From: a phage
Direction: 5' to 3' (one strand)
Length of the DNA stretch: 64,000 bases
Sequence record: PZ386971.1
Numbering within the stretch: the stretch's first letter is position 1; every line of letters starts with the position of its first letter. Below the pieces are notes generated by a model, which had not been told where the DNA came from, ran no database searches, and saw only the letters and a list, made by a program, of their open reading frames with translations. The position numbers and the translations under genes were made by a program. Positions 4,160 through 57,083 of the stretch are shown here, piece by piece.

Positions 4160-4201
4160 TTTACTCCATGCCCTCTTCGGAGGGTACATTGAGGTATTGT
4201 T

Positions 4202-4504: not shown

Positions 4505-4508
4505 CAAG

Positions 4509-4530
4509 ACCCCGCTTCGGCGGGGTTTTA
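4509..4530 (+). terminator. Rho-independent terminator (ccccgcTTCGgcgggg + T-run)
   Basis: Perfect 6-bp GC stem with TTCG loop then TTTT; same hairpin sequence recurs at 12721. Confidence 0.6.
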
Positions 4531-4559
4531 AATTTTTCTAGATTATTTTATTGAATTAC

Positions 4560-4587
4560 TTTACTTCTTCAATAACTCACGTATAAT
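4560..4587 (+). promoter_or_regulatory. Early sigma70-type promoter (-35 TTTACT, 16 bp, -10 TATAAT), cassette A copy 1
   Basis: TTTACTtcttcaataactcacgTATAAT then conserved leader cataagcag..caacttgaaa and AGGAACTATATCATG. Confidence 0.55.
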
Positions 4588-4635
4588 TCTAAACATAAGC
4601 AGTACGACACCAACTTGAAACGAAGGAACTATATC

Positions 4636-4992
4636 ATGACCAAGACCGAAATTAACGCTATCCTGAAAGAAATCGGCCTCTGCAACCTGAAACGCCGCGT
4701 CAATCCTTACCAGCCCGCAAAGCCAGTACGCGACAGCCAGGGAAAGATGATAAAAGGGATCTACTGTGCAGATGTTGGCCCAATGACTGTGACCAGTCCA
4801 CACATTGACAGATTTAACGCTATTGTTGAGGAGTTTTGTGGTAAGGTTCTGGGTGAACTAGCTAATGATTTATGCTCCCCAGATACCAAAGTTGTAGCTT
4901 TCGGGAGCCACCTCGTCACATTCCACCTCACCAGCTTCCGTGCCCACGGTGATTATCATGTGTATTATGCTCAGGTTAGCATTCGCAAATAG
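4636..4992 (+). CDS. Hypothetical protein (118 aa)
   Basis: ATG at 4636 preceded by AGGAACTATATC; the track's MKRRNYIM N-terminus is an artefact of an in-frame TTG in the leader. Confidence 0.5.
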   Translation: MTKTEINAILKEIGLCNLKRRVNPYQPAKPVRDSQGKMIKGIYCADVGPMTVTSPHIDRFNAIVEEFCGKVLGELANDLCSPDTKVVAFGSHLVTFHLTSFRAHGDYHVYYAQVSIRK

Positions 4993-11367: not shown

Positions 11368-12693
11368 ATGGCTAAGAAACTTGTTACCGAACAAATGCGC
11401 GAGCAGTGGCTGCCAGTTCTTCAGAAAGAATCTGAAAGCATCCAGCCGCTTTCTGCCGAAAACGTTGCCGTCCGTCTGCTGCAAAACCAGGCTGAGTGGA
11501 ACGCCAAAAACCTGGGCGAATCCGACGCTCCTGGCTCCGTGAACGCCTCTGTGGGCAAATGGCAGCCAGTCCTGATCGACATGGCCAAACGTCTGGCTCC
11601 GGTCAACATCGCGATGGACTTCTTCGGCGTTCAGCCGCTGTCTGGTCCTGACGGTCAGATCTTTGCTCTGCGTGCTCGCCAGGGCATTTCAGACGGCGGA
11701 TCCAACACCCAACATTCCCGTAAAGAACTGTTCATGCAGGAAGCTGATTCTGGCTACTCTGGTGACGACACTGCTCAGGCTGGCGACCCATCTGGCTTTA
11801 CCCAGACTGAGATCGAAGGTTCCGGCGCTGCCACCACCACCATCGGTAAAGGCATGTCAACTTCCGACGCTGAACTGCTGGGCACCACCACTAACCCATG
11901 GGCACGTGTTGGTATCACCGTTCAGAAAGCAACCGTGACTGCGAAGTCTCGCGGCCTGTACGCTGACTACAGCCATGAACTGCGCCAGGACATGATGGCG
12001 ATCCACGGCGAAGACGTTGACAGCATCCTGTCCGACGTGATGGTAACTGAAATTCAGGCAGAGATGAACCGTGAGTTTATCCGCACCATGAACTTCAGCG
12101 CAGTACGCTTCAAAAAATTCGGCACCAACGGTATCGTAGATATCTCCACTGACATCTCCGGTCGTTGGGCGCTGGAAAAATGGAAGTACATGACTTTCAT
12201 GCTGGAAGTCGAAGCGAACGGCATCGGTGTTGACACCCGTCGTGGTAAAGGCAACCGTGTTCTGTGCTCCCCGAACGTAGCATCCGCTCTGGCGATGTCC
12301 GGCATGCTGGATTATGCTCCGGCGCTGCAGGAAAACACCAAGCTGGCGATTGATCCGACTGGCCAGACCTTCGCTGGTGTGCTGTCTAATGGTATGCGTG
12401 TCTACATCGACCCGTATGCAGTAGCAGAGTACATCACCCTGGCATACAAAGGCGCAACCGCGCTGGATGCTGGTATCTTCTTCGCCCCATACGTTCCGCT
12501 GGAGATGTACCGCACCCAGGGTGAAACCACCTTCGCTCCACGCATGGCGTTCAAGACCCGCTACGGGATTTGTGCCAACCCGTTCGTTCAGATCCCAGCG
12601 AACCAGGATCCACAGGTCTATGTGACTGCGGATGGTATCGCCAAGGACACCAACGTGTATTTCCGCAAAGGGTTAATTAAGGGACTTTTCTAA
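11368..12693 (+). CDS. 23: Major capsid protein (T4 gp23-like)
   Basis: GVQPLSGPDGQIFALRA vs T4 GVQPMNSPTGQVFALRA; GVLSNGMRVYIDPYA...AYKGATALDAGIFFAPYV...FKTRYGI vs T4 GVLGGKYRVYIDQYA...GYKGPNEMDAGIYYAPYV...FKTRYGI; start at ATG 11368 with AAGGAA SD. Confidence 0.95.
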   Translation: MAKKLVTEQMREQWLPVLQKESESIQPLSAENVAVRLLQNQAEWNAKNLGESDAPGSVNASVGKWQPVLIDMAKRLAPVNIAMDFFGVQPLSGPDGQIFALRARQGISDGGSNTQHSRKELFMQEADSGYSGDDTAQAGDPSGFTQTEIEGSGAATTTIGKGMSTSDAELLGTTTNPWARVGITVQKATVTAKSRGLYADYSHELRQDMMAIHGEDVDSILSDVMVTEIQAEMNREFIRTMNFSAVRFKKFGTNGIVDISTDISGRWALEKWKYMTFMLEVEANGIGVDTRRGKGNRVLCSPNVASALAMSGMLDYAPALQENTKLAIDPTGQTFAGVLSNGMRVYIDPYAVAEYITLAYKGATALDAGIFFAPYVPLEMYRTQGETTFAPRMAFKTRYGICANPFVQIPANQDPQVYVTADGIAKDTNVYFRKGLIKGLF

Positions 12694-29804: not shown

Positions 29805-29981
29805 ATGACCGACAACAAATTAAAACGTGTCGGACTTGATTGTCTTGACAATTCATTCCGCCCCAGTGATGTTCTGGTCGCCCAAATGGAAAACAACCGG
29901 GATTTCATTGAAACTATGCTGGAGAACGCCGACGCGAACTCCAAACACTCCAAAGCCCAAAAAGGTCAAAACGATGATTGA
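29805..29981 (+). CDS. Possible small ORF (58 aa) overlapping the vWA start
   Basis: Not in the track (under 60 aa); ATG with GAGAG upstream; reads MTDNKLKRVGLDCLDNSFRP...; hand-indexed coordinates. Confidence 0.25.
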   Translation: MTDNKLKRVGLDCLDNSFRPSDVLVAQMENNRDFIETMLENADANSKHSKAQKGQNDD

Positions 29982-32175
29982 ATCATTAACATTTAAGAAT
30001 GCGGTTGCGACCGTTGCGCCGTCTAACCATGTAATCGTTGTGGATATCTCCGGTTCCATGTATCGTTCACTTCCAGAAGTCCGTAAGCATCTGAAGGAGA
30101 ACCTGCCTTCCCTGGTGAAACCCGAAGATACTGTGAGCATCCTTTACTTTTCATCTCGCGGTGATTTCGGAACGGTATTTGCCGGACGCCAGATCGGTGT
30201 CGCATCTGACCTGAGCGAGCTGAATAAGCTGATCGATCGCTTCCTGCAACCGTCCGGATGTACTGGCTTTGTTGAGCCGTTGAAACTGGCGATGGACACT
30301 GCTCGTAGCCTGAAGAAGCCTGGCTATGTCAACAACCTGGCGTTCATGACTGACGGGTATGACAACTGCTGGCGTACCAACGAAATCTTACTGGTTGCTG
30401 AGACCCTGCCATTTGCTTTCGATAACATTACTTTCATCGAATACGGCTGGCACTGTAACCGCGAACTGCTGGCGCAGATGGCCGAACGCTCCGGTGCGAC
30501 CCACGTGTTTGCCGAAGGTCAGACCGAATACCAGACCGAACTAGAAAACGTGCTGAAGTCATCAGTGCCGAAGGTGAAAGTTGATGTCCCAGTCATCTAC
30601 ACCCATGCCATCTACGTCGAAAACGGTGTGGCAACAGTACTGGCGGTGCAGGACGATGACTCTCACCCGGTCGGCTATGTGAGCATCCCTGAGAGCGTCA
30701 CCAAGCTGTGGGTTGTAAACCCTAACATGATCGACCAGCTTGATGCGCTGGCGGACATCCAGGCGGCATACGTGCTGGCGTTCTACGGCGTACACATCAT
30801 GGACGCAGACCTGGTATGGGCTGCGCTGAAGAAGACGGGCGACGTTCGCTTCATCAAACAGTACAGCAACTGCTTTACCAAGCAGGACTACTCCAACATC
30901 AAGAACGATCTGGTACAGGCGATTGTTGACGACCAGCTGCGCGGCGTTGACGGTATTGACTATGACCTGGTTCCGGCTGAAGATGCGACGACCGTCGTTG
31001 ACGTGCTGACGTATCTGGCTGAAGCTGGCGTGTCTGTTGCCACCAAACATCCTATGTTCTCCTACAAGAGCATTGGTCGCGGTACTGTGCAGAAAGCGGA
31101 CGATACCGAAGACAAACTGGCAGAACAGATCGCGAATGCTCAGTCCAAAGAAGAGCGTAAAGCCCTGGCTCTCAAGCTGGCTGAGCACGAAGAATGGACG
31201 CCGTCGTTTGAACCTGCCAACGATCTGGGCGTTATCTCAATCAGCGATCTGGTCTACAACTCTGAGCGCCCGAACATCAGTGTGCGCACTATTCAGCATG
31301 GTACTGTGACTGTCCCTGAGTTCGCACAGAAGAAGTTTGGTCTGCCTGAAGAACTGGATACTTTCCAGTGGCGCAACTACACCATCGTCAAAGATGGTAT
31401 CATCAACGTGAAGACCCTGCCGTTCAAGGCTGATATCGAAGTTGTACAGAAGCTGATCGAAATGGGCGTCCACGTGTTTGGTGGACCGGAAGTGTTTGTC
31501 CTGAACCTGGAAAGCGTACCGCTGGTCAACCGCGCCATGGTCAAGAACATCAGTGCTGCTCAGTTCTTTGCGGATAATGTCCGTTTGGAAGCCCTGAAAG
31601 GCAAGCAGAAGGTGCTGAAGTTCTATCGAGACGCCCTGGTTGGTAAAGGTAACGCCAAAGGCCTGGCAGTACAGTACGGCGCTGAGGCGGCCGAGTTCCT
31701 GTCCTCCTACGGCATCCGCGATTACGGCTTCTCACCGAAGACTGAGACCAAAGAGTCTACCGACTTCTACATGAGCCGGGAGCTGAACGTGAAGATCGCT
31801 GGCGCTTCATCTCTACCGTCTATCGCAGCGGTACAGAAGAAGATTGCCGAGAACAAGAAACTCAATGCTGGTGACTTGTTCATCGCCAATGCTCTGAAAG
31901 AGTACGAAGCATTCGTGAAGTCTCCTATGATCACTGCCGTGCCTGAAGCCTTACAGAAACAGCTGATCGAAAACTGGATCGACGCTGCTGCCAAGGCGAC
32001 CATCACCGAAGTCCGTGCCCTGAACAAGACACTGTCTAAAGTGGTGTATGGTATCGTTGCTGGCCACGGCTGGTTCACCGACCTCGACCTGGAAGAGTCC
32101 ACCATGGAAGTTGAAGTGGATGGCGTGAAGTACAAGGTCACTGCCGAACTGACAGAGAAAGAAATCAAAATCTAA
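29974..32175 (+). CDS. von Willebrand factor A (vWA) domain protein, 733 aa
   Basis: VIVVDISGSM (MIDAS DxSxS), later FMTDGYDN; N-terminal 49 aa of the track ORF are low-complexity and likely untranslated, start ATG 29974 with AAAGG SD. Confidence 0.7.
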   Translation: MIESLTFKNAVATVAPSNHVIVVDISGSMYRSLPEVRKHLKENLPSLVKPEDTVSILYFSSRGDFGTVFAGRQIGVASDLSELNKLIDRFLQPSGCTGFVEPLKLAMDTARSLKKPGYVNNLAFMTDGYDNCWRTNEILLVAETLPFAFDNITFIEYGWHCNRELLAQMAERSGATHVFAEGQTEYQTELENVLKSSVPKVKVDVPVIYTHAIYVENGVATVLAVQDDDSHPVGYVSIPESVTKLWVVNPNMIDQLDALADIQAAYVLAFYGVHIMDADLVWAALKKTGDVRFIKQYSNCFTKQDYSNIKNDLVQAIVDDQLRGVDGIDYDLVPAEDATTVVDVLTYLAEAGVSVATKHPMFSYKSIGRGTVQKADDTEDKLAEQIANAQSKEERKALALKLAEHEEWTPSFEPANDLGVISISDLVYNSERPNISVRTIQHGTVTVPEFAQKKFGLPEELDTFQWRNYTIVKDGIINVKTLPFKADIEVVQKLIEMGVHVFGGPEVFVLNLESVPLVNRAMVKNISAAQFFADNVRLEALKGKQKVLKFYRDALVGKGNAKGLAVQYGAEAAEFLSSYGIRDYGFSPKTETKESTDFYMSRELNVKIAGASSLPSIAAVQKKIAENKKLNAGDLFIANALKEYEAFVKSPMITAVPEALQKQLIENWIDAAAKATITEVRALNKTLSKVVYGIVAGHGWFTDLDLEESTMEVEVDGVKYKVTAELTEKEIKI

Positions 32176-32886: not shown

Positions 32887-32903
32887 GCATAACTTTTATT
32901 AAA

Positions 32904-32928
32904 TCCCCAACAAACGTTGGGGATTTTT
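32904..32928 (+). terminator. Terminator hairpin tccccaacAAAgttgggga + T-run (copy 2)
   Basis: Exact repeat of the element at 32548. Confidence 0.55.
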
Positions 32929-32940: not shown

Positions 32941-32969
32941 TTTACTTCCTTTAAGGAATGTCCTATTAT
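32941..32969 (+). promoter_or_regulatory. Early promoter (-35 TTTACT, 17 bp, -10 TATTAT)
   Basis: GTTTACTtcctttaaggaatgtccTATTAT. Confidence 0.45.
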
Positions 32970-33319: not shown

Positions 33320-33826
33320 ATGACCGATCAACAAATTCAAGATTTATTTTACCTCGTCCATGATAAGTCCCACATCATGCGCCCCGGTACTGTTTCCCCT
33401 GCCGTCCGTGATCTGGTGCAAGAATTGCGCGAACCACAGACGACCACACTTTATCGCGGGTTGCCTAAAGAGGACGTTGCGCGTTTAGAGATGATGTTTG
33501 AACGAGGCGACATGTTCCAGACATGGGATTCTTGCCTTAGCTTCAGTGAACTGAAGCATGTGGCCAAAAAATTTTCTAAATCGTACGGAACCCAAGCTGT
33601 TGCCCGCATTTGTTACAAACATCGAAACAGACTCCCGGAGGGGCTTAATGTCTATGGTTCTCTAGAAAAATTTGTGAACAAAGGCGATGAATCAGAAATG
33701 GATATGCTGGACTTGGCGTCCATGGAGAAAGAATGGATATTCTGCCAGCCTCGCGTCATACCAGTTTCAAGAAAAATGGCAACAGACGGCACGATGGTTT
33801 TTACCGTATCACTTGTTACCCTATAA
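33320..33826 (+). CDS. Hypothetical protein (168 aa)
   Basis: ATG preceded by CAGGAACTATACC. Confidence 0.5.
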   Translation: MTDQQIQDLFYLVHDKSHIMRPGTVSPAVRDLVQELREPQTTTLYRGLPKEDVARLEMMFERGDMFQTWDSCLSFSELKHVAKKFSKSYGTQAVARICYKHRNRLPEGLNVYGSLEKFVNKGDESEMDMLDLASMEKEWIFCQPRVIPVSRKMATDGTMVFTVSLVTL

Positions 33827-33878: not shown

Positions 33879-34256
33879 ATGAAAAAGTTAATCCTCGCTG
33901 TTGCCCTGCTGGGCGCTTCCTTTGCTGCTGTTTCCGCCCCTCCTGTCATCACCGGAGTGTCTACCAACGGTGTTTATGCTTTCAAGGCGTATGGCCAAGA
34001 CCTCGTTCTGTATAAGAACGGGAAGATGATTGAGCGCTGCGTATCAGACGACGTGAATCGTGGGATCGACAATCAGGGTAGCCCATACGTCCTGGACATC
34101 TATTCCTGCTCCAACGGGACGAAGTCCTTTGGCGTCAAGACCTTTGGCAACGTCGCCGACGGTGGCTGGGGCTTCATGTTCGAAACCCGCAACCACCACC
34201 CGGTCAAGACCATGCAAGAAGAGTTCTTGATCTCTGTCGGGGGTGGAACATTATGA
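33879..34256 (+). CDS. Secreted small protein with signal peptide (125 aa)
   Basis: MKKLILAVALLGASFAAVSA signal-peptide-like N-terminus; two Cys. Confidence 0.5.
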   Translation: MKKLILAVALLGASFAAVSAPPVITGVSTNGVYAFKAYGQDLVLYKNGKMIERCVSDDVNRGIDNQGSPYVLDIYSCSNGTKSFGVKTFGNVADGGWGFMFETRNHHPVKTMQEEFLISVGGGTL

Positions 34257-34540
34257 CGCCTGAACAACGCCGTTCCGTGAAAGTCATGGTGAAAGGTAAG
34301 ACTCAGCTGAGTTATGTCCAGTCTGCCAATGTTGTCCGCCTGATGGAAGTCAAGAACGACATCGACAACTCCCGATTCCAATCGGCACTCTACGGGCTTC
34401 TCGAGTTCGTTCTTCGCCAGGCTGATCTTGGTCCTGTCTATACTCTTGATGATCTGACCAAGCTGTTGAACACGGGCGGGGAAGGTTTCGACACTGCTCG
34501 TATCCTGATTGACGGTGGACCTAAAGAAGACGAGGTATAA
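34253..34540 (+). CDS. Hypothetical protein (95 aa)
   Basis: ORF overlapping the upstream stop (ATGA). Confidence 0.45.
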   Translation: MTPEQRRSVKVMVKGKTQLSYVQSANVVRLMEVKNDIDNSRFQSALYGLLEFVLRQADLGPVYTLDDLTKLLNTGGEGFDTARILIDGGPKEDEV

Positions 34541-34732
34541 TTTGGATAAAGAATTGGTTTGGGAAATTGTGAAGGGTGTCCTAGTAATAATCGCGGTGGT
34601 TTTCATCTTGGGTGGAAACTTCTTCTATTGGTTATTCCGATCCGACCAGAAACGTCGCGAACGCAAGGAGAAAGAGAGAAAGGATCGATGGATGCGCTAA
34701 CTAAGGGATAACCCTATATCCCGAGGTGTGTC

Positions 34733-35182
34733 ATGTTCCTTACATCCTTTATTGACTGGTTGAACATCATTAACGGCCTGAGGATCCCTGTTGGGAACCT
34801 CGGGCTTTCTCGTTCTTCTATGCCGCAAATCGATGCCGACAAACAAGAAGATTTTCACAAATATCTTGAAGACAACGGCGTGTCCATAGATGCTGTGCAA
34901 GTGCCCATCAAAATGCTTCGTCTCACCCAGAACGAAATCAACAAGATGAAGGTCTGGAAGATCATGAAGCAGATCAGAAATAAGAAACCTATGGGTCGAG
35001 TTTGGGTGTCTTCTGACAATTACGTTGTTGACGGTTCTCACCGATTTGTCGCTGCGTTGAACATGGACGGCAAACAGCGCATGAAGGTCTACAAAGTTGA
35101 TTTGCCAGCGATGGAATTTGTTAAACTCGCTAAACAGTTTCAGGGTGTGCGATACAGAACGGTCAGCGATACCCGTTTCTGA
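34733..35182 (+). CDS. ParB/Srx-like nuclease-domain protein
   Basis: 149 aa; LRLTQNEI ... VVDGSHRFVAA resembles the ParB N-terminal domain (LxxTQ ... DGxHR). Confidence 0.5.
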   Translation: MFLTSFIDWLNIINGLRIPVGNLGLSRSSMPQIDADKQEDFHKYLEDNGVSIDAVQVPIKMLRLTQNEINKMKVWKIMKQIRNKKPMGRVWVSSDNYVVDGSHRFVAALNMDGKQRMKVYKVDLPAMEFVKLAKQFQGVRYRTVSDTRF

Positions 35183-35261
35183 ATACGATAGTTTATTGAA
35201 ACCCTTTACTCATCATGGTGAGCCGCCTATCATTTCATCCAATGAAATAAGGAGAATCACC

Positions 35262-35948
35262 ATGAAACGTTTAATCCTCGGGGTCGTGCTGTCTGGTCTG
35301 GCATTACCCGCCGCTGCTAAGCTGAACTCCACAGGTGATAAACTGTGGTCCGACCTTTCCTATTGTGCTGGGTTCTCCCAGGCGGTTGCCATCGACAAGT
35401 CTGGTTCCATAGAGAACTTCGCTGAACTCTGGAACACAGGCAACGTCTCCACTGCTGTCGTCAATGCCGGAATTGAGTTCAACCGTTACAAACAGGGAGC
35501 CTATAACCTCAAGGGCTACCTCAATGACGACGAATTTAACCGTGGAGGCATGGAGGCTGGCGATTTGATCATGACTGGGCGTATGGGCACCCAAGGCCGA
35601 ATGACCGTAAGACAGTGCCGTTCGCTCCCTTCTCCGGCATTACAGAAGGGTGTGCAGGTTGGTCGCCGCCACCTGAACCTCATCAACGATGGCAACCAGT
35701 GCGTCAAAGTATTCGAATACAGCGCTACGCAGACCTCTGATCGCGTCCTGAAGAAGGAATGGCGCACCCGCGCTCTTGGTCTCAGAGCCTGGCTGGTTGA
35801 GAACGATTATTACTTTGAAGACAGGGTTCAGAACGGTCTGAAAGACCTGGCCACGAATCTGAGCGTGAACCTTGATGATCCTCGCATGTCGCGCGAACTC
35901 CAGCAGACTCGTGTTGACTGCGACAATATGATGAAGGAGAACGAGTGA
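35262..35948 (+). CDS. Secreted or periplasmic protein with signal peptide (228 aa)
   Basis: MKRLILGVVLSGLALPAAA signal-peptide-like N-terminus; several Cys. Confidence 0.5.
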   Translation: MKRLILGVVLSGLALPAAAKLNSTGDKLWSDLSYCAGFSQAVAIDKSGSIENFAELWNTGNVSTAVVNAGIEFNRYKQGAYNLKGYLNDDEFNRGGMEAGDLIMTGRMGTQGRMTVRQCRSLPSPALQKGVQVGRRHLNLINDGNQCVKVFEYSATQTSDRVLKKEWRTRALGLRAWLVENDYYFEDRVQNGLKDLATNLSVNLDDPRMSRELQQTRVDCDNMMKENE

Positions 35949-36274
35949 TGAAATGTAAAATCTTGCTCTTGTTGGTACTGATAGCCGGATGTGTAAACGC
36001 CGCGCCACCGTCCAAACTGAACACATGTGTGGCATGGATGGAGACGTATCAGCAGTTCCACCCAGATGACAAAGACACATCTATCCTCCTGTCTGACTTT
36101 GAGGGAGAGCTGAAGCGCCTTGATCTGTTCAGTGTTGATCAGATAGAGAATGCGCTGGATCTTCCCATGATGCTGACTGCGGCTGATAACAGTCCACAAA
36201 CGAAAAAAGACCTGATGTATTGTCGGGGGATTGCCCAGGACTTTGTCGGATTTCAAAATAAAGTTTCGGGTTAA
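35945..36274 (+). CDS. Putative lipoprotein (109 aa)
   Basis: MMKCKILLLLVLIAGC: signal peptide with lipobox-like LIAGC. Confidence 0.5.
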   Translation: MMKCKILLLLVLIAGCVNAAPPSKLNTCVAWMETYQQFHPDDKDTSILLSDFEGELKRLDLFSVDQIENALDLPMMLTAADNSPQTKKDLMYCRGIAQDFVGFQNKVSG

Positions 36275-36313
36275 AATTTAGCCCTACATTGTGAACTGAA
36301 GGAATACACTGTG

Positions 36314-37180
36314 ATGCTCCTGACCAAAACAATCGCTGCGGCGATTATCGAAAAGAATAAGGCTTTTGCCCCCAACGCAGCCAAAGTTATGTTGGTACAC
36401 GAAGACGCTCGCGTGATCTTCGCCGAGAAGTTCGAGATGGGCGCGAAGTTCTGGTATGCCGACAACTTACGTGAGAGCAAACTTCAGGGTATCATCCACA
36501 AACTGACTCTGGTCGCCAAGCGTAATGACCAGGGTGACTGGGTCGGCGTTTCTGACTTCAGTACGAAGATCACCCCAAAGGCTCCGCTTTCTCGTCAAGA
36601 GCGCATTCTGGAAGCCCAGGAAAAGCTGCGTGCGGCTCGGAGTACCACAAAGGCGAAGCCAGATGCAAGCCCTGTCATCAAGCCAGCGGTTGTTCCTAAG
36701 TCCAAATACCTCCCGCCCGTGAGTCAAAAGTCTGTGGAGCAATTGGTTGAGAAGCGCAAGGGTGACGTTGTGATGAAGTCTGACTCTTCAGTGGAGTCGT
36801 TCAAGCCGGATCCAGCAGAAGTACAGGCGCTGGCAGAAAAGGTAAAGAATTCACAATTCATTTCCCTGCGCGAACTTGAACCGCCTACTCGCCGTCGTAT
36901 CGCCAACGAGCTGTTTGTGTCGTTCAGGTCGGATGGCAAGATCGTCCTGTGCAAAGCCCTGCGCGATGCAATCCCTTGGACAACTCTGAACATGATGGTC
37001 ACTCGCGACTTCAAGCGTTTTGGTATCATGCAAGGCAAGGACTACAACGTCAACCAGAGCGGGACTTATGTTAATCGCGCCATGTGTGACAAACTGACCT
37101 TCCCAGAAGACACCGGAACGATCCGTGTCGTTCTGAATTGGGATGACAAGCTGAACATGTATGTTGGCGATTTCCAATAA
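36314..37180 (+). CDS. Hypothetical protein (288 aa)
   Basis: ATG 36314 with AAGGAA SD; track start is the GTG 3 nt upstream. Confidence 0.5.
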   Translation: MLLTKTIAAAIIEKNKAFAPNAAKVMLVHEDARVIFAEKFEMGAKFWYADNLRESKLQGIIHKLTLVAKRNDQGDWVGVSDFSTKITPKAPLSRQERILEAQEKLRAARSTTKAKPDASPVIKPAVVPKSKYLPPVSQKSVEQLVEKRKGDVVMKSDSSVESFKPDPAEVQALAEKVKNSQFISLRELEPPTRRRIANELFVSFRSDGKIVLCKALRDAIPWTTLNMMVTRDFKRFGIMQGKDYNVNQSGTYVNRAMCDKLTFPEDTGTIRVVLNWDDKLNMYVGDFQ

Positions 37181-37236
37181 TCAATAACCTCGGGCGGCTT
37201 ATCATAAAGCTGCCCTTTCATTTGAGAGACTATATC

Positions 37237-42783: not shown

Positions 42784-43885
42784 AATCGGCGATCTGCATA
42801 TCGGGAGCCGTAATGGTTCCCGATACGTTCGCGACTTCATCAAGAACTACCTCATCAATTATTTCATCCCTGAACTTGTCGCCTCCGACATCCATGAGGT
42901 CTGGCAGTTTGGTGACACATTTGACGTCCGCAAATTCATGTACGGGCGTGACAAGGACTGGTTGAAAGATGAGCTGACTCCGGCGCTGAAAGCTGCTGGG
43001 ATCAAGTGGAATGGTATTGTTGGCAACCACGACATCACCCTGGAAGAGTCTAACCGCATCAACTGGCCATCCTACCTGAACGAACTCGACCCAGATGTAT
43101 ACTGCTATTATAGCGAACCGACCGAAGTGATGATCGAGGGTGTCAAGACTCTGCTCCTACCGTGGATCAACAAGGAGAACTATGATGCGTCTATTAAGGC
43201 GTTACAAGATACAGACGCCGAGTACTGTTTTGCGCATCTGGAGTTGGCAGGGTTCAAAATGTACCAGTCCTCTACTTGTGATCACGGTCAGATCGACGTT
43301 GCGTTGCTTTCCAAGTTTACCAGGGTCGACACGGGGCATTTCCATACCCGTTCGATGGAAGGTAACATTCAGTATCTTGGGACTCCGTATCACCTGAACT
43401 GGGAAGACTACAAAGATGGCACCAACCGTGGCTTCTATGTGGACGACATGCGCGGCGGTGAGGTATTCATTCCCAACAGCGAGCACCAGACGTTGTTCCG
43501 CTATGTGGAATATGATTACACCAAGTTGTCCTCAGACGATGAGGGTAACTGGATCGACCCGGAATGGTTGAACACAGGCTTGGGTATTGAAGGGCAAATC
43601 GTTAAGGTTATTGTACAGAATCGCGACAATGCTAAGCATTATGAAAAGTTCTGTGATGCAATGAAGCGATGCAAGTGTATTGACTACAACTTCATCGACC
43701 GGACTATTACCGTAGCGGCTGAGAAGGTTGAGGTCACCGAAGAGATGGTGGCAACCGACGCAGTGGAAGTCCTAAAGAAGGATATCCGCGCCGGGAACAA
43801 CATCCAGCGCCCTGAAAACGTCTGCAAGCTAGCAGAGCACTTCTACAACGCTGCCCAACAACGCCTGAATACACTGGATGCATAA
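42770..43885 (+). CDS. 47: Recombination nuclease subunit (T4 gp47, Mre11-like)
   Basis: Calcineurin-like phosphoesterase motifs GDLHIG, GNHD, GHFH; followed by the gp46 gene. Confidence 0.85.
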   Translation: MAIAKIGDLHIGSRNGSRYVRDFIKNYLINYFIPELVASDIHEVWQFGDTFDVRKFMYGRDKDWLKDELTPALKAAGIKWNGIVGNHDITLEESNRINWPSYLNELDPDVYCYYSEPTEVMIEGVKTLLLPWINKENYDASIKALQDTDAEYCFAHLELAGFKMYQSSTCDHGQIDVALLSKFTRVDTGHFHTRSMEGNIQYLGTPYHLNWEDYKDGTNRGFYVDDMRGGEVFIPNSEHQTLFRYVEYDYTKLSSDDEGNWIDPEWLNTGLGIEGQIVKVIVQNRDNAKHYEKFCDAMKRCKCIDYNFIDRTITVAAEKVEVTEEMVATDAVEVLKKDIRAGNNIQRPENVCKLAEHFYNAAQQRLNTLDA

Positions 43886-43886
43886 C

Positions 43887-46223
43887 ATGACTCAAAGTAC
43901 AGATATCCTGGCCAAATTTGGCAATCTTTTGAAGGAAGCTGACACCCCGGTAGAGGTGGAAGTCCCATTTGAAGTGCGTGATAACGTTACGCACAAACTG
44001 ACTTTCCGCAAAGGTCGCGCCAAGAACTTCCGCTCCATCGGCAATCAGTTCATGGAGATTGATTATCAGCGCAACCCAGCCACCCTTGTCACGTCTGATG
44101 ACAACGGCGCGGGTAAATCCACGATGTTGGTATGGCTGCTGTTCTTCGTACTGTACAACACCACGTACAGTAAGAAGGAGAAGAAGGCAGGCCTGGTTAA
44201 CTCACAAAGCCGCAAGGAATGTGTGGGTGAGGTAGAGTTTGCCTGTCGTGGTAGTGAATGGAAAGTTCGCCGGGGTATCAAGCCCGACTTTGTTGAAGTC
44301 TACCAGATGGTGGACGGTAAGTGGTTGCAGATCGATAACGAAGCAGCCAAGGCCGACATGAACAAGTACATCGTGAACCTCATCGGTGTAGACCAGAAGA
44401 TGTTTGAGAACTCTCTGGTGCTGGGTAAAGAGAAGTTCATTCCGTTTACGGAGATGTACACTGCCGACCGTCGCGCCATGGTGGAGACAATTTGGGACTT
44501 GGGCTTCTTCAGCCTGATGAACGAAGATGTCAAGGCCGCCATCAAAAAGGCAAATACAACTCTGGACTCCATATCTAACGAATGCGCACTGAAGGTTATT
44601 GACCACACCAACAAGAAGACGCAGCTTCAGCAGATCGAGCAATCCAACGCCCTGATCCAACAGCAGTCGGCCGATATCCTTGTACAGCAACAGGAAGCCC
44701 TGAATTCCCTGGATGCTGACATCGCTTCCCAGAACGAAGAGCGCAGCCGCCTCACTGCGGTTGAGTTCGAAGCCACCCAGGAAATGAAGACGGTAGAAAA
44801 CCGCCTGAATGATGAATCCATGGTGGAGATCGAGGCTATCAAGAAAGACTTTGATGCCAAGATCCAGGCGGTGAAGGATGCCGCTCAGGAAAAGGCCGAT
44901 GATTATGAGCGCATCGAAGTGTCTACTGCGGAGCATGAACTTCAGGTCTTGCGTGACCGTGCCTTTACAGTGGCCGAAAGCAAGAACACCCTGCTCACCG
45001 AGCGCAACACAAACCTGGACGCCCTGAACGCTGCTATTCAGCGCCGCCAGCAGGGTGAGAACTTCCGCATCAAGTTCCAGACCGAAATGGACGGACATCA
45101 GTCGGCCATCAAGCGCTTCCACGACATGGGGACTTGCCCTACCTGTACCCAACTGGTGTCTGATGACACCAAGGCGCGGATTGAGAGTGAGTACAATCCT
45201 CAGATCCAGGAACTGCAGTCGAAGTTAGATCAACTAGACAAAGTTACCGCCGATATCAATGTCCTGATCGATGATCACAAGGCTCAGGACGATAAGTTGG
45301 TTGCTGACATTGCTGTGTTGGACACTGAACTGGATGCAATGCGCAAGCAGGCTGACGAAATCGTTGACAACATCAAGCAGCTGCGCCGTGATATTCAAGG
45401 TTTTCATGATGCTGCCACGATTGAGTGTAATTCACTGAACCGTGAATGTCAACAGAAGATCCTTGACATCCGTAAGGCACTGAACGTTCGTTTTGAAGAC
45501 ATCACTGCGTCACTACAACAAACTCGAGAGAATGCCGTCAGCGGGATTAAAGCCGTCGATGATAAGATCGCCGAGCTGAAAGCCCGTCGTGCTCCTCTCG
45601 TGGCGTCTATTGCCGATCTGGAGCGTAAACTGGCTGTACAACCAACGCCTACCGCCGAACTAGAGAACTCTATCGCTGTGTTGGAAGGTGAACTGGAGGA
45701 TCTATACCAGCGCCGCGAGGATGCCGATCAGGAACTCCAGGACTTACAGCACCTCCTGTTCTTCCTGAAGGATGACCAGACCAAGGCGCGTATCATCGCC
45801 CTGTATCTGCCATTCCTCAATAGCAAGATCAACGAGTATCTTGAAGCCCTCAACATGTTCTTGGACATCGTTGTTGACGATACCTTTGAGATCACCATGA
45901 GTGCAGCAGGCCGCAAGGGGCAGAGTATCTTCTCCCTGTCTACTGGCCAGCGGAGCCGCCTGAACCTGGCGGTGACATTAGCTCTGCGTGACGTGGCTAA
46001 CCTCAAGGCATCAGTGCAATGTAACCTGTTTGTCCTGGATGAAATCCTTGAGAACATGAGCGAGCGCGGGGTGCAGGAATCGGTTGAGATGCTGAAGCAT
46101 AAGTTCGGCGGGAACAACCTGTTTGTCATCAGCCAGCGTGAGCAGGAGTTCCAGGAATACTTCCAACACAACATTCGCTACGGCCTACGAAACGGCCTGA
46201 CCGAAGTTATCAAGAAGGATTGA
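43887..46223 (+). CDS. 46: Recombination ATPase subunit (T4 gp46, Rad50-like)
   Basis: N-terminal P-loop DDNGAGKST, long coiled-coil, CPTC zinc hook; start could be ATG 43878 instead. Confidence 0.85.
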   Translation: MTQSTDILAKFGNLLKEADTPVEVEVPFEVRDNVTHKLTFRKGRAKNFRSIGNQFMEIDYQRNPATLVTSDDNGAGKSTMLVWLLFFVLYNTTYSKKEKKAGLVNSQSRKECVGEVEFACRGSEWKVRRGIKPDFVEVYQMVDGKWLQIDNEAAKADMNKYIVNLIGVDQKMFENSLVLGKEKFIPFTEMYTADRRAMVETIWDLGFFSLMNEDVKAAIKKANTTLDSISNECALKVIDHTNKKTQLQQIEQSNALIQQQSADILVQQQEALNSLDADIASQNEERSRLTAVEFEATQEMKTVENRLNDESMVEIEAIKKDFDAKIQAVKDAAQEKADDYERIEVSTAEHELQVLRDRAFTVAESKNTLLTERNTNLDALNAAIQRRQQGENFRIKFQTEMDGHQSAIKRFHDMGTCPTCTQLVSDDTKARIESEYNPQIQELQSKLDQLDKVTADINVLIDDHKAQDDKLVADIAVLDTELDAMRKQADEIVDNIKQLRRDIQGFHDAATIECNSLNRECQQKILDIRKALNVRFEDITASLQQTRENAVSGIKAVDDKIAELKARRAPLVASIADLERKLAVQPTPTAELENSIAVLEGELEDLYQRREDADQELQDLQHLLFFLKDDQTKARIIALYLPFLNSKINEYLEALNMFLDIVVDDTFEITMSAAGRKGQSIFSLSTGQRSRLNLAVTLALRDVANLKASVQCNLFVLDEILENMSERGVQESVEMLKHKFGGNNLFVISQREQEFQEYFQHNIRYGLRNGLTEVIKKD

Positions 46224-55548: not shown

Positions 55549-55617
55549 CACATAGGGCGGCAACACACCGCCGAATGAAAAGTGAAACGAACCAACTACA
55601 TTATGAGGAATTACATC

Positions 55618-56106
55618 ATGGCTACTACCAAAACTCTGATCACCAACGGCACCATCTCTTTCGAACTGAACACCGAAGTTGCTAAAGTTGAAATGTTCCG
55701 CATCGCTCAAGCAGCTGGCTTCACTGGTGGCAAAACTTCCTTCATGAACCTGCTGAACGGTAAAGTGAAAGCGACTAACGGCTTCACCCTGGTAGAGCAG
55801 GTTGTGGTTGATAAAGCTGTGGTTGCTAAGACTGCCGACAAAGTTGGTATGCTGAAAAACCTGGGCCACGACATTCACATTGTCGAAGCGAAGACCGAAA
55901 CTTACGGCACCATCGTAGTCGGTAAAGGTCGCATCCAGCTGAACCCACTGAACAACGGTTCCTTCTCTGTGATGGTCTTCCCTAAGAAGGGATACGACAA
56001 CACCGACATCGTGAAAGCTGCTGGCGGCGAAGCAAAAGCTCAGTACGTCAAAATGGGTAAACTGAGCGCCGACGCAGTTGAAGATCTGGTGAGCAAACTG
56101 GCCTAA
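55618..56106 (+). CDS. Hypothetical protein (162 aa), probably abundant
   Basis: Strong promoter and UP element upstream; codon choice looks biased toward abundant codons; Gly/Lys/Thr-rich. Confidence 0.55.
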   Translation: MATTKTLITNGTISFELNTEVAKVEMFRIAQAAGFTGGKTSFMNLLNGKVKATNGFTLVEQVVVDKAVVAKTADKVGMLKNLGHDIHIVEAKTETYGTIVVGKGRIQLNPLNNGSFSVMVFPKKGYDNTDIVKAAGGEAKAQYVKMGKLSADAVEDLVSKLA

Positions 56107-56288: not shown

Positions 56289-57083
56289 ATGGCCATTCTA
56301 AAACTTGGCAACCGTGGCACTGAAGTGAAGGCACTTCAGGATAGCCTCAACAAAATCGGCTTCACCCTCGTCGCTGATGGTATCTTTGGCAAGGCAACAG
56401 AGAACGCCGTCAAGACTGTTCAGGCGGGTGCGGGGCTTGTCATCGATGGTATCGTGGGTCCAAAGACCTCCTATGCTATTCGCAACGCCGGAGACGCCCA
56501 TCAGGATCATCTAACTGAGTCAGACCTGATTGATGCTGCTAACGATCTGGGTGTTGACCTCGCCTCTGTCAAGGCGGTGAATCAGGTTGAGTCGCGCGGC
56601 ACGGGCTTCACCAAGTCAGGTAAGATCAAGACATTATTTGAGCGCCACATCATGTATAAGAAGCTGATGGCGAAGTTCGGACAGGCTCGGGCGAATGCCA
56701 TGGGACATATGTACCCGACGTTGGTCAGTCCTTCCGCAGGCGGGTACACGGGAGGCGACGCGGAGTTGGATCGACTTCATGCGGCCATCAACATCGATGA
56801 GGATTGTGCGTACGAGAGCGCCTCTTACGGTCTCTTCCAGATCATGGGATTCAACTGCCAGGTCTGTGGATACGCCAACGCCAAGGAGATGTTCAACGAC
56901 TTCCTGACAGGAGAACGTGCTCATTTGATGGCATTCGTGAAGTTCATCAAGGCTGACGCCAAGCTCTGGCAGGCTCTGAAGGACAAGAACTGGTCTGAAT
57001 TTGCACGGCGCTATAATGGTCCGGCGTATGCCAAGAACCAGTACGACAAGAAGCTCGCAGCAGCATACAAGAGTTTCAGTTAA
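56289..57083 (+). CDS. Endolysin: peptidoglycan-binding domain + DUF3380-type muramidase domain
   Basis: N-terminus LKLGNRGTEVKALQDSLNKIGF...DGIFGKATENAVKTVQ (PG_binding_1-like); C-terminus ESRGTGF...SYGLFQIMGFN...WSEFARRYNGP. Confidence 0.8.
   Translation: MAILKLGNRGTEVKALQDSLNKIGFTLVADGIFGKATENAVKTVQAGAGLVIDGIVGPKTSYAIRNAGDAHQDHLTESDLIDAANDLGVDLASVKAVNQVESRGTGFTKSGKIKTLFERHIMYKKLMAKFGQARANAMGHMYPTLVSPSAGGYTGGDAELDRLHAAINIDEDCAYESASYGLFQIMGFNCQVCGYANAKEMFNDFLTGERAHLMAFVKFIKADAKLWQALKDKNWSEFARRYNGPAYAKNQYDKKLAAAYKSFS

What the first reader, a model, noticed from the sequence alone, without database searches (positions are those of the whole stretch)
33879..36274. Cluster of secreted and lipoprotein genes with a ParB-like nuclease gene in the early region
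Three genes encode signal-peptide proteins (33879-34256, 35262-35948, and a lipobox protein at 35945-36274) and bracket a ParB/Srx-like nuclease-domain gene (34733-35182; LRLTQ ... DGSHR) and a possible small membrane ORF (about 34543-34700, non-ATG start). Envelope-targeted small proteins in T4-type early regions typically mediate superinfection exclusion or lysis inhibition; a ParB-like nuclease nearby could degrade incoming or host DNA.
Basis: inference. Interest (0 to 1): 0.5.

Follow-up and report, generated by a model that had tools for sequence, protein, structure and literature searches.

The report
Secreted protein pair mislabelled as spanins
In this ViI-like (Ackermannviridae) phage, two adjacent genes widely annotated as the "spanin" lysis pair look instead like a conserved pair of soluble proteins secreted into the host periplasm, next to a gene for a virion-carried ParB/sulfiredoxin-fold protein; their function is unknown, and they are candidates for this phage family's unexplained lysis-inhibition or superinfection behaviour.

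Summary
Genes A (33879-34256), E (35262-35948) and F (35948-36274) have Sec-type signals, F has a lipobox (LIAG|C), C (TTG 34542-34700) is a one-TMD protein, and D (34733-35182) has a ParB/Srx fold (AlphaFold pLDDT 94.5; top 46 PDB hits all ParB/Srx).

The genome is Ackermannviridae (about 97% identical to fGh-Ecl02, ZQ1 and AV101), not T4.

E and F are annotated i-/o-spanin in many relatives, but that label fails its defining tests:
- E has a conserved cleavable AXA signal, not a membrane anchor, and folds as compact helical bundles, not coiled coils.
- F's lipobox occurs only in this lineage. The other roughly 40 sequence clusters have plain signal-peptidase-I sites.
- The pair has its own sigma70-type promoter and lies 20 kb from the endolysin.

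E and F are translationally coupled, co-inherited in about 280 genomes, rich in paired cysteines, and orphan in fold and sequence.

D matches a virion protein of phage LIMEstone1. Its domain also occurs inside giant phage proteins. Nuclease activity is unproven.

My best guess (about 0.35) is that E/F form an early periplasmic complex that protects the infected cell envelope (Spackle-like exclusion or lysis inhibition). CBA120 shows lysis inhibition with no known antiholin. This is inference only.

The parts
32941..32969 (+). Sigma70-type promoter (TTTACT-N17-TATTAT) just after terminator hairpin 32901-32926; probable start of the transcription unit that contains the cluster
   Evidence: The motif class occurs 6 times in the window against 0.03 expected, all on the + strand.
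33320..33826 (+). Context gene: small Alt-like ADP-ribosyltransferase-related protein (168 aa)
   Evidence: PHROG phrog_832 'RNA polymerase ADP-ribosylase', E = 5.8e-15. Annotated the same way in PQ306799.
33879..34256 (+). Gene A: secreted 125-aa protein with 2 Cys; an accessory gene
   Evidence: N-terminal signal conserved in Magnus (..FAAHA|D). phrog_5474, unknown function. Present in only 105 phage records and absent from most Kuttervirus. Start overlaps nothing; its stop overlaps the start of B (ATGA).
34253..34540 (+). Gene B: 95-aa acidic cytoplasmic protein of unknown function, translationally coupled to A
   Evidence: ATGA overlap with A. phrog_4458, unknown function. No hydrophobic segment.
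34542..34700 (+). Gene C: 52-aa single-pass membrane protein with a TTG start and a highly charged basic C-terminal tail
   Evidence: RBS GAGG 6 nt upstream. KD19 2.66. phrog_14464 'membrane protein'. Same architecture in Magnus. Weak Pfam Phage_holin_2_4 hit, E = 0.061, below threshold.
34733..35182 (+). Gene D: 149-aa (17.3 kDa, pI 9.9) stand-alone ParB/sulfiredoxin-fold protein with motifs LRLTQNE and DGSHR; its homologue matches a virion protein of LIMEstone1
   Evidence: AlphaFold pLDDT 94.5, pTM 0.87. Foldseek PDB: top 46 hits are all ParB/Srx fold. Family of 2,581 representatives, found solo and inside proteins of up to 2,359 aa. Matches LIMEstone1 ORF102 by size and by the phiMAM1 annotation note: 17.31 kDa, 5 peptides (PMC3296691). 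The JA15 homologue is annotated 'unknown structural protein'.
35192..35233 (+). Sigma70-type promoter of E-F(-G): TTTATTGAA (35192-35200), TTTACT (35205-35210), N17, TATCAT (35228-35233)
   Evidence: Conserved in Marshall and Magnus and recognisable in phiMAM1 and Bue1.
35262..35948 (+). Gene E: 228-aa secreted periplasmic protein. Cleavable signal 1-19 (AAA|K); conserved 5-helix N-domain (about 23-120; Cys35, Cys119); lineage-specific 4-helix C-domain (140-227; Cys147, Cys220). Annotated 'i-spanin' in some relatives.
35948..36274 (+). Gene F: 108-aa exported acidic protein (mature pI 4.4) with invariant Cys27 and Cys92. In this lineage only it has a lipobox LIAG|C15, followed by the ancestral SPase I site VNA|A. 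Annotated 'o-spanin / Rz-like spanin' in relatives. Its start overlaps E's stop by 1 nt.
36311..37180 (+). Gene G: 289-aa protein of unknown function (phrog_3828), probably co-transcribed with E-F; no export signal
37192..37215 (+). Intrinsic-terminator-like hairpin (9-bp stem, 6 GC pairs) followed by a T-rich tail; probable end of the unit

Best explanation
The cluster is not one machine. It is an early, host-RNAP-transcribed accessory block of a ViI-like phage with two separable parts.

(1) E and F are a translationally coupled, always co-inherited pair of soluble proteins exported by the Sec pathway and released into the periplasm by signal peptidase I. In this lineage F has secondarily acquired a lipobox, so it may be tethered to the outer membrane. 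Both fold around paired cysteines, and E is a two-bundle all-helical protein with no conserved catalytic-type residues. They are not canonical spanins. I think they most likely form a stoichiometric periplasmic complex made from early in infection. This complex would protect or monitor the infected cell's envelope against further adsorbing phage. One version is a functional analogue of T4 Spackle, with acidic F binding the basic CHAP peptidoglycan-hydrolase domain of the tail hub. The other is a periplasmic component of the lysis inhibition seen in CBA120.

(2) D is a stand-alone ParB/Srx-fold nucleotide-binding protein that is probably packaged in the virion. It most likely acts on NTPs or DNA immediately after injection. 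It is not obligatorily linked to E/F.

Shown: gene structures, export signals and their conservation, the folds of D and E, distribution, the promoter motif, and (from the literature) a LIMEstone1 virion protein that D matches by size and annotation. Inferred: signal cleavage, complex formation, early timing, and all functions.
For: Export and solubility.
- E's -3/-1 AXA site is conserved through sequence change (AAA, ATA, ASA, APA, AHA, ANA, VHA), with Pro at -5. Its uncharged run is only 15-16 aa and KD19 is 1.59-1.77. Lambda Rz has a 20-aa run and KD19 2.63.
- Of 48 F sequence clusters, only the window's near-identical lineage has LIAGC. A 93%-identical sibling has LMAGS. All other lineages except one chance lipobox-like match (P0067) end in SPase I sites that align with the window's VNA|A.

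Fold and conservation.
- E's invariant residues are Gly, Ala, Ser, Cys and Met. F keeps invariant C27 and C92 plus polar residues.

Coupling and co-inheritance.
- The E stop and F start overlap in all four lineages examined.
- E is in 278 phage records and F in 282.
- Marshall has D at 83% identity but E and F at 99%, so E-F moves as a module.

Timing and context.
- E has its own sigma70-type promoter, of a class that occurs 6 times against 0.03 expected.
- The block lies among replication genes, 20 kb from a cytoplasmic-type endolysin.
- E and F are not in the LIMEstone1 virion proteome.

Functional context.
- CBA120 shows lysis inhibition with no holin or antiholin identified (PMC3184105).
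- LIMEstone causes lysis from without (PMC3296691).
- Spackle is an early, cleaved, small helical periplasmic protein with one disulfide that binds a basic patch (PMC7677548).
- Mature F has pI 4.4 (net -6), and the tail-hub CHAP region has pI 9.9 (net +8).

D: and PMC5512222.
Against: - No sequence or structural similarity links E or F to Spackle, RI, Imm or any defence family. The functional assignment rests on analogy.
- F diverges much faster (66-72% identity to Kuttervirus and Taipeivirus) than the proposed CHAP target (about 91%). There is no tight co-variation.
- The model gives E no specific role.
- Signal cleavage was judged by rules and conservation, not by SignalP or experiment.
- 'Early' timing is inferred from promoter type only. 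No transcriptome was found.
- The lipobox in this lineage shows that membrane tethering is tolerated, which leaves some room for a membrane-bridging role.
- D = LIMEstone1 ORF102 rests on molecular mass and annotation notes. I did not align the LIMEstone1 sequence itself.
Confidence: 0.4

Rival explanations
1. E and F are the phage's two-component spanin, as currently annotated. [quoted passage not shown] Together they bridge the periplasm and fuse the membranes at lysis.
For: - The genes are adjacent and overlapping, with an N-terminally hydrophobic protein followed by a lipobox protein in this lineage.
- They are annotated i-/o-spanin in Marshall, ChubbyThor and others, and as PHROG phrog_3843 'Rz-like spanin'.
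- The Marshall pair is listed in SpaninDB (PMC6139136).
- No other canonical spanin pair was found in an all-frame scan of the whole genome.
- Both are core genes of enterobacterial ViI-like phages (PMC10892097).
Against: - E has a conserved SPase I site and a 15-16-aa h-region, not a TMD.
- E's model shows compact bundles, not long coiled coils.
- F lacks the lipobox Cys in about 40 of 48 sequence clusters, including most Kuttervirus, Taipeivirus, Miltonvirus and Nezavisimistyvirus.
- F is 1-5% Pro with a mature part of about 90 aa. Lambda Rz1 is 18% Pro with a 40-aa mature part.
- The pair has a sigma70-type promoter and sits in a replication-gene context, 20 kb from the endolysin.
- The same survey that lists Marshall files ten other ViI-like phages (CBA120, PhaxI, ECML-4, Vi01, SFP10, SJ2, SJ3, Maynard, AG3, RC-2014) as spanin-less. 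It treats Marshall's pair as singleton families and the longest spanin in the set.
Confidence: 0.07
2. E/F are periplasmic lysis-timing regulators, that is, an antiholin or superinfection sensor. They act like T4 RI by binding the periplasmic part of a still unidentified holin and imposing lysis inhibition when more phage adsorb.
For: - CBA120 shows T4-like lysis inhibition at high MOI, and no holin or antiholin has been identified in CBA120, ViI or AG3 (PMC3184105).
- The endolysin is a cytoplasmic type that needs a holin.
- E/F are secreted, promoter-equipped, and conserved across the enterobacterial members.
Against: - There is no similarity to RI or to the holin T family.
- RI uses a SAR domain and is unstable. 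E and F have classical cleavable signals and paired cysteines, which suggest stable folded proteins.
- No holin partner is known, so the model cannot be anchored.
- Lysis inhibition has been reported only for CBA120.
Confidence: 0.2
3. E/F are a non-canonical outer-membrane disruption system with no membrane anchors. They would substitute functionally for spanins in a 'spanin-less' phage family.
For: - ViI-like phages lack canonical spanins (PMC6139136) yet lyse efficiently.
- Kongari et al. note explicitly that other topologies could serve as spanins.
- E has a Gly-rich helix (GGMxxGxxxMxG), and in one lineage F has become a lipoprotein.
Against: - Soluble proteins cannot bridge and fuse the two membranes.
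- Neither protein is cationic or amphipathic in the way known outer-membrane-disrupting peptides are. Mature E is about neutral and F is acidic.
- The promoter is an early type.
- Secreting an outer-membrane disruptor from early in infection would be hazardous.
Confidence: 0.08
4. D is a DNase that degrades host or superinfecting DNA, working together with the envelope proteins as one exclusion module.
For: - The ParB/Srx fold and the DGxHR motif are confirmed.
- Some ParB-like domains are non-specific nicking DNases or NTPases, for example Osa and GmrS (reviewed in PMC5512222).
- Distant homologues weakly hit Pfam ParBc_2 'putative ParB-like nuclease'.
Against: - D is decoupled from E/F in a Vibrio relative.
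- D is far more widespread (432 phage records; 2,581 representatives) than E/F.
- D's homologue matches a virion protein. That points to a role at injection rather than in defending an already infected cell.
- Its nearest structural neighbours are CTP/ATP-binding ParB, Noc, Srx, SerK and SbnI.
- The first His of DGHHR is Ser here.
- No similarity to P1 DdrB or DarB was found.
Confidence: 0.15

Closest known systems
Two-component spanins (lambda Rz/Rz1; SpaninDB 'separated/overlapped' class)
   Same: Two adjacent, slightly overlapping genes. The first product has a hydrophobic N-terminus. The second has a lipobox in this lineage. Both have periplasmic cysteines. The pair is annotated this way in many relatives.
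   Different: E has a cleavable signal, not a type II anchor, and compact helical bundles, not coiled coils. F's lipobox is absent from most of the family, F is not Pro-rich, and its mature part is more than twice as long as Rz1's. The pair is not in a lysis cassette and has a sigma70-type promoter. The spanin survey itself classes nearly all ViI-like phages as spanin-less.
T4 Spackle (gp61.3), periplasmic inhibitor of the gp5 tail lysozyme
   Same: F resembles Spackle in outline. It has an early-type promoter, a cleaved Sec signal, and a small acidic mature protein (90 aa against 75 aa). One Cys lies near the N-terminus and one near the C-terminus. The putative target domain on the tail hub is basic. 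The phage family shows lysis from without and lysis inhibition.
   Different: No sequence homology was found. F's fold was not determined here. The tail hub carries a CHAP amidase/peptidase domain, not a lysozyme. F has an obligate partner gene (E) with no counterpart in T4. F evolves faster than the proposed target.
T4 RI antiholin / T holin lysis-inhibition system
   Same: Secreted periplasmic phage proteins, in a phage family reported to show lysis inhibition.
   Different: RI uses a signal-anchor-release domain and is labile. E and F have classical cleavable signals and paired cysteines. There is no homology, and no T-like holin has been identified.
ParB/sulfiredoxin superfamily domains of phage polyvalent proteins (Iyer et al. 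2017), e.g. the DdrB-like ParB of P1
   Same: D has the ParB/Srx fold with the conserved DGxHR arginine. It occurs solo in phages and as a domain of giant phage proteins next to virion genes. Its homologue matches a virion protein of LIMEstone1.
   Different: No detectable similarity to P1 DdrB or DarB by hhalign. D belongs to a distinct family with an invariant N-terminal GNLGxxRxxMPQI motif and no Pfam model. It has no GERRxR CTPase box. It is encoded in the replication/early block rather than among late genes.
T6SS amidase immunity proteins (e.g. Tai4)
   Different: The hit is rank 24 among generic helical bundles and is not significant. There is no sequence similarity. This is only a lead.

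Membership tests
i-spanin (two-component spanin, inner-membrane subunit) | N-terminal transmembrane domain giving a type II (N-in, C-out) uncleaved anchor | tested here: not met
   E has a 15-16-aa uncharged run with Pro, KD19 1.59-1.77, and a strictly conserved -3/-1 AXA site across lineages. The lambda Rz control has a 20-aa run and KD19 2.63. This is a rule-based test; no SignalP or experiment.
i-spanin (two-component spanin, inner-membrane subunit) | Periplasmic domain dominated by long coiled-coil helices | tested here: not met
i-spanin (two-component spanin, inner-membrane subunit) | Gene adjacent to, overlapping or embedding an o-spanin gene | tested here: met
   E's stop overlaps F's start by 1-4 nt in four lineages. 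There is no embedded lipobox ORF inside E.
o-spanin (outer-membrane lipoprotein subunit) | Lipoprotein signal with a lipobox Cys, as a family-wide feature | tested here: not met
   The window protein has LIAG|C. Only 6 near-identical clusters of 48 share it. About 40 have SPase I sites and no Cys at that position.
o-spanin (outer-membrane lipoprotein subunit) | Complements the lambda Rz/Rz1 lysis defect, or is required for outer-membrane disruption | not testable with these tools
   Needs genetics. No experimental report was found for any ViI-like phage.
ParB/sulfiredoxin (ParB/Srx) fold superfamily | Alpha+beta ParB/Srx fold | tested here: met
   D model has pLDDT 94.5 and pTM 0.87. The top 46 Foldseek PDB hits are all ParB-N, Noc, Srx, SerK, SbnI, PadC or Atu1540, most with probability 1.00; best E = 3.3e-4.
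ParB/sulfiredoxin (ParB/Srx) fold superfamily | Conserved active-site motif DGxHR with invariant Arg | tested here: met
   The family consensus is DGHHR and the window protein has DGSHR. D100, G101 and H103 are invariant and R104 is at least 90% conserved in 59 diverse members.
ParB/sulfiredoxin (ParB/Srx) fold superfamily | Nuclease (or NTPase) activity | not testable with these tools
   There are only weak sub-threshold hits of distant homologues to Pfam ParBc_2 'putative ParB-like nuclease'. A biochemical assay is needed.
Chromosomal/plasmid ParB CTPase clamps | GERRxR CTP-binding box, HTH DNA-binding domain and a ParA partner | tested here: not met
   D is 149 aa with no HTH domain. Its sequence has no GERRxR. 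It has no Pfam ParBc hit. No parA-like neighbour is present.
DdrB-like ParB domains of polyvalent proteins (Iyer 2017) | Detectable homology to the P1 DdrB N-terminal domain | tested here: inconclusive
   hhalign of the D-family profile against P1 DdrB gave probability 0.1%, and against DarB 0.4%. The template was a single sequence, so sensitivity is low. The context (solo or inside giant phage proteins, virion-associated) is similar.
T4 Spackle family | Sequence homology to gp61.3 | tested here: not met
   F has no Pfam, PHROG, NCBIfam or PADLOC hit other than its own PHROG. tblastn finds only Ackermannviridae.
T4 Spackle family | Binds and inhibits the tail-hub peptidoglycan hydrolase in the periplasm | not testable with these tools
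   There is only charge complementarity: F pI 4.4, CHAP region pI 9.9. There is no tight co-variation.

The most novel reading that the evidence does not exclude
E and F form a new kind of soluble periplasmic two-protein device specific to enterobacterial ViI-like phages. It would sense or neutralise the peptidoglycan-cleaving CHAP tail hub of superinfecting phage and couple this to lysis timing. That would make it a non-homologous solution to both Spackle-type exclusion and RI-type lysis inhibition, in a family that has no identified holin, antiholin or spanin.
Probability: 0.15. Interest if true: 0.8.

Novelty: new variant of a known kind. Interest (0 to 1): 0.45.

Why it matters
1. The label 'i-spanin / Rz-like spanin' has spread through PHROGs and RefSeq to a large share of the roughly 280 Ackermannviridae genomes that carry this pair, including many therapeutic candidates. 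The evidence here says the label is unsupported. How these phages breach the outer membrane is therefore still open, as the spanin survey itself implied.

2. ViI-like phages show lysis inhibition and lysis from without, yet no holin, antiholin or exclusion protein is known for them. A conserved, promoter-equipped, secreted protein pair is a concrete, testable candidate.

3. F shows a soluble periplasmic protein becoming a lipoprotein within one lineage (LIAGC against LMAGS in a 93%-identical sibling). That is a neat case of how lipoprotein signals arise, and a warning that a lipobox in one genome does not define a family.

4. D adds a well-modelled solo member, probably virion-carried, to the ParB/Srx domains used by phages at the start of infection.

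Tried and rejected
- **Family libraries.** Pfam, NCBIfam and PADLOC scans of all cluster proteins gave nothing above threshold. PHROGs gave only self-families, plus weak ParB hits for D.
- **PDB by sequence.** The narrow D profile gave no hit. The broad profile gave only non-significant SerK/PF0380 hits on the DGHHR motif. The question was settled by structure instead.
- **E/F paralogy.** E's C-domain is not detectably a paralogue of F: hhalign probability below 3%.
- **D versus P1 DdrB and DarB.** No similarity, so I do not file D as DdrB-like.
- **Superinfection-exclusion genes of relatives** (Magnus gp121, MAM_101, Bue1 gp090). There is no homologue in the window, and these proteins look cytoplasmic.
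- **CHAP and F co-variation.** Not informative. CHAP is about 91% conserved where F is 66-72%.
- **T4 late-promoter motif TATAAATA.** Not enriched: 2 found against 0.7 expected.
- **Alternative spanin candidates.** An all-frame scan of the whole genome found none. The second lipobox ORF has no C-terminal TMD and a cytoplasmic neighbour.
- **Literature on expression.** No transcriptome or genetics was found for these genes. PMC9902359 was irrelevant.
- **Technical limits.** A hydrophobic-moment scan of F was not decisive.


Full report
**Identity of the window**

The region is about 50% GC. It is 96-97% identical to Enterobacter phage fGh-Ecl02 and Escherichia phages ZQ1 and AV101, and 275 Ackermannviridae (ViI-like) genomes match it. 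It is therefore a ViI-like myovirus, related to T4 only distantly through core replication and structural genes.

The cluster lies in a long co-directional block of replication and nucleotide-metabolism genes: vWA protein, acyl carrier protein, then the cluster, then an HU-like protein, helicase, RNase H, late sigma factor, SbcCD, primase, endolysin and RNR.

**Check of the observation**

All the genes exist with good translation signals.

| Gene | Coordinates | Product |
|---|---|---|
| A | 33879-34256 | 125 aa, secreted |
| B | 34253-34540 | 95 aa, coupled to A by an ATGA overlap |
| C | TTG 34542-34700 | 52 aa, one TMD, very charged tail |
| D | 34733-35182 | 149 aa, ParB/Srx fold |
| E | 35262-35948 | 228 aa, RBS AAGGAG, secreted |
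| F | ATG 35948-36274 | 108 aa, overlaps E's TGA by one base |

The motifs LRLTQ (residues 62-66) and DGSHR (100-104) are present in D.

A rule-based screen of about 211 gene-like ORFs of the whole genome flagged E, F, one distant lipoprotein candidate and two membrane anchors. For this I used the window plus the rest of fGh-Ecl02. A was missed only because my start picker chose a longer ORF. Three of about four exported proteins within six consecutive genes has P of about 0.006.

**The spanin question**

Several relatives annotate E/F as i-spanin/o-spanin: Marshall, ChubbyThor, the Danish Kuttervirus set, and RefSeq via PHROG phrog_3843. A comparative paper lists both as core genes of Vi01-like phages (PMC10892097).

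The reference spanin survey (Kongari et al. 2018, PMC6139136) is inconsistent on this. It lists Marshall's pair as singleton families and as the longest two-component spanin, with 300 periplasmic residues. It also places CBA120, PhaxI, ECML-4, Vi01, SFP10, SJ2, SJ3, Maynard, AG3 and Dickeya RC-2014 in its table of spanin-less phages. Maynard's E is 98.7% identical to the window's. The spanin label is annotation only, so I tested its defining features.

**E is not an inner-membrane anchor protein**

- Across about 30 sequence clusters and the divergent Serratia (phiMAM1) and Erwinia (Bue1) versions, the N-terminus keeps a positively charged n-region, a 10-12-residue h-region and a Pro at about -5.
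- It also keeps a strict -3/-1 small-residue site: AAA|K, ATA|K, ASA|K, APA|K, AHA|G, ANA|G, VHA|R.
- The uncharged run is 15-16 residues with KD19 of 1.59-1.77. Lambda Rz, run through the same script, has a 20-residue run and KD19 of 2.63.
- AlphaFold (30-sequence alignment, pLDDT 75) predicts nine helices of 10-25 residues. They form a confident N-terminal five-helix domain (23-120, pLDDT 80-93) and a four-helix C-terminal domain (140-227).
- The C-terminal domain is missing in phiMAM1 (126 aa) and Bue1 (165 aa). The conserved unit is the roughly 100-residue N-domain, with two Cys and invariant Gly, Ala, Ser and Met but no conserved catalytic-type residue.

**F is not, as a family, a lipoprotein**

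- Of 48 clusters at 90% identity, only the window's near-identical lineage carries LIAG|C. A 93%-identical sibling has LMAGS.
- The other lineages (bar P0067, with a chance lipobox-like ISSC) have ordinary signal peptides ending in AYA|A, VHA|A, ALA|V, AQA|A, SSA|A, ASA|Q and similar. These align with VNA|A, three residues after the Cys in the window protein.
- The lipobox is therefore a recent, lineage-specific acquisition on top of an ancestral SPase I site.
- Mature F is about 90 residues and acidic (pI 4.4), with 1-5% Pro and invariant C27 and C92. Rz1 is 18% Pro with a 40-residue mature part.
- An all-frame scan found no lipobox ORF embedded in E and no other canonical spanin pair or u-spanin in the genome.

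**Context of E-F**

The stop/start overlap of E and F is conserved in four genera. E occurs in 278 phage records and F in 282. Marshall has D at 83% identity but E and F at 99%, so E-F moves as a module.

A promoter of the form TTTATTGAA-N4-TTTACT-N17-TATCAT lies at 35192-35233. The core motif occurs 6 times in the window against 0.03 expected, always on the coding strand and often just after terminator hairpins. About a dozen occur per genome. The E copy is conserved in Marshall and Magnus. Because it has both -35 and -10 elements, it is a sigma70-type, host-RNAP promoter. I infer early expression, but I found no transcriptome.

The endolysin (56289-57083) has PG_binding_1 and Muramidase domains and no signal. 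It lies 20 kb away. E and F are not among the 39 LIMEstone1 virion proteins.

**What E/F might do**

The evidence supports a translationally coupled pair of soluble periplasmic proteins, with F possibly outer-membrane-tethered in this lineage. They are probably a complex, made from a host-type promoter, and orphan in sequence and fold. Function is inference.

Two published phenotypes of the family lack genes. CBA120 shows T4-like lysis inhibition at high MOI with no holin or antiholin identified (PMC3184105). LIMEstone causes lysis from without (PMC3296691).

T4 Spackle is an early, signal-cleaved, 75-residue helical periplasmic protein. It has one disulfide (C29-C81) and binds a basic patch of the gp5 tail lysozyme. 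Its loss causes collapse of lysis inhibition (PMC7677548).

F has the same outline. The tail hub of these phages carries a CHAP domain whose region is strongly basic (pI 9.9, net +8), against F at net -6.

Against this reading: there is no homology, F diverges faster than the CHAP domain, and E has no assigned role.

I rate a protective or monitoring periplasmic role (Spackle-like or LIN-type) at about 0.35-0.4, a specifically RI-like antiholin role at about 0.2, a canonical spanin at about 0.07, and a non-canonical outer-membrane disruptor at about 0.08.

**D**

- The Ackermannviridae-only profile hit nothing in the PDB.
- An exhaustive phmmer search found 2,581 representative proteins. They are solo proteins of about 150 aa, or domains in proteins of up to 2,359 aa, associated with Zeta-toxin/AAA_33 kinase, GNAT and DUF1015 domains. 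Sub-threshold ParBc_2 hits fall in the homologous region.
- The family consensus is ..GNLGI.R..MPQI...LK.TQ.E.N..KV...IVS.D.YVLDGHHR.
- AlphaFold gives pLDDT 94.5 and pTM 0.87. The top 46 Foldseek PDB hits are all ParB/Srx-fold proteins: pNOB8 ParB-N, Srx, Noc, CTP-bound ParB, SbnI, SerK and PadC. The fold call is confirmed.
- D has no GERRxR box, no HTH and no ParA neighbour. It shows no similarity to P1 DdrB or DarB.
- D is 17.33 kDa. This matches LIMEstone1 ORF102, an 'unknown structural protein' of 17.31 kDa with 35.6% coverage and 5 peptides. The phiMAM1 annotation note links MAM_095 to that LIMEstone protein. The JA15 homologue is annotated a structural protein, and Vi01's a 'phage associated protein'.
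- D-like domains occur in Vibrio, Aeromonas, Ralstonia and Stenotrophomonas phages. One sits inside a giant 'DarB-like' protein (gene about 13.5 kb) next to virion genes in Ralstonia phage Eline.
- This fits the class of ParB/Srx domains delivered with the DNA, which are predicted to be NTP-regulated DNases or NTP sensors (PMC5512222).
- In Vibrio phage K452, D is followed directly by the helicase gene. E-F and its neighbours are therefore an insertion in the enterobacterial lineage, and D is not functionally tied to them.

**A, B and C**

A is an accessory secreted protein with two conserved Cys. It is in 105 records and absent from most Kuttervirus. B is cytoplasmic and of unknown function. 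C is a conserved small single-pass membrane protein with a very charged tail. A Pfam holin hit at E = 0.06 is below threshold.

**Verdict**

The main result is negative but useful. The widespread spanin annotation of E/F fails the defining tests. What remains is a conserved secreted pair of unknown function, in a family whose lysis control and outer-membrane disruption are unexplained.

I rate novelty as a new variant of a known kind (phage periplasmic early proteins), and interest as moderate.

Noticed in passing
window 4560, 32570/32584, 32941, 35205, 48363, 55517, 62123 (+ strand); also L009 15979 and L010 10611, 18581: A well-defined promoter class, TTTATTGAA-N4/5-TTTACT-N16/17-TATnAT, often immediately 3' of terminator hairpins. 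It occurs 6 times against 0.03 expected in the window. Kutter et al. 2011 reported being unable to identify early promoters of ViI-like phages by informatics, so this motif may be that missing class.
   Followed up: partly
L009 (ON212266.1) 11650-11991, - strand: A second strong lipobox ORF in the genome (113 aa, MKLNKILLVCALAFSTTAC.., 5 further Cys, good RBS). It lies between the DNA polymerase and a 5'(3')-deoxyribonucleotidase gene. It has no C-terminal TMD, so it is not a u-spanin. Its function is unknown.
   Followed up: partly
L009 (ON212266.1) 43710-44280, + strand: A 112-aa protein with a real N-terminal TMD (KD19 about 1.9) and a charged, helical-looking C-terminal part. It is preceded by an 82-aa ORF, in the late neck-gene region. 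By topology it is a better holin or i-spanin-like candidate than E.
   Followed up: no
L010 (ON212266.1) 928-2538, - strand (the gene runs off the window's 3' end, after 63648): The gp5-like tail hub carries a CHAP (cysteine amidase/peptidase) domain at residues 187-262 rather than a lysozyme, although many records call it 'tail lysozyme'. The region is strongly basic (pI 9.9).
   Followed up: partly
window 33320-33826 and 29827-32175: There is a small (168 aa) Alt-like ADP-ribosyltransferase-related gene just upstream of A. A 782-aa vWA-domain protein lies further upstream, and its LIMEstone1 homologue (ORF108) is virion-associated. This block therefore mixes probable virion-delivered effectors with secreted proteins.
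   Followed up: no
L003 (ChubbyThor) 4131-4961; compare window 35183-35261: A NUMOD3 homing-endonuclease gene is inserted between D and E in ChubbyThor, and E's annotated start is extended there. A homing endonuclease is also annotated next to D in Klebsiella phage Croc_ER14. The D-E junction seems to be a site for mobile-element insertion.
   Followed up: no
window 34542-34700: Gene C is a 52-aa protein with one TMD and a tail of alternating Lys/Arg/Glu (RSDQKRRERKEKERKDRWMR). The same architecture is conserved in Magnus. It has a sub-threshold Pfam holin hit (E = 0.061). It could be a small holin- or antiholin-like protein.
   Followed up: no
L001 (Marshall) versus window, genes D/E/F: Mosaicism. 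Marshall (a Kuttervirus) has D at 83% identity to the window but E and F at 99%. Typical Kuttervirus have D at 98.7%, E at 89% and F at about 72%. The E-F module has been exchanged between lineages.
   Followed up: partly
window 55582-56106 and 56289-57083: The endolysin (PG_binding_1 + Muramidase PF11860, no signal or SAR) is preceded by a 174-aa gene of unknown function and a TTTACT-class promoter at 55517. The endolysin may therefore also be transcribed by host RNAP rather than only late.
   Followed up: no
L006 (Magnus) 5596-6233; L004 4493-4957; L005 6174-6647: Genes annotated 'superinfection exclusion' in relatives encode proteins with no signal or TMD, and they have no homologue in this window. 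A 104-aa Magnus gene annotated 'endolysin' looks like a LysM-type fragment. These annotations look doubtful.
   Followed up: partly
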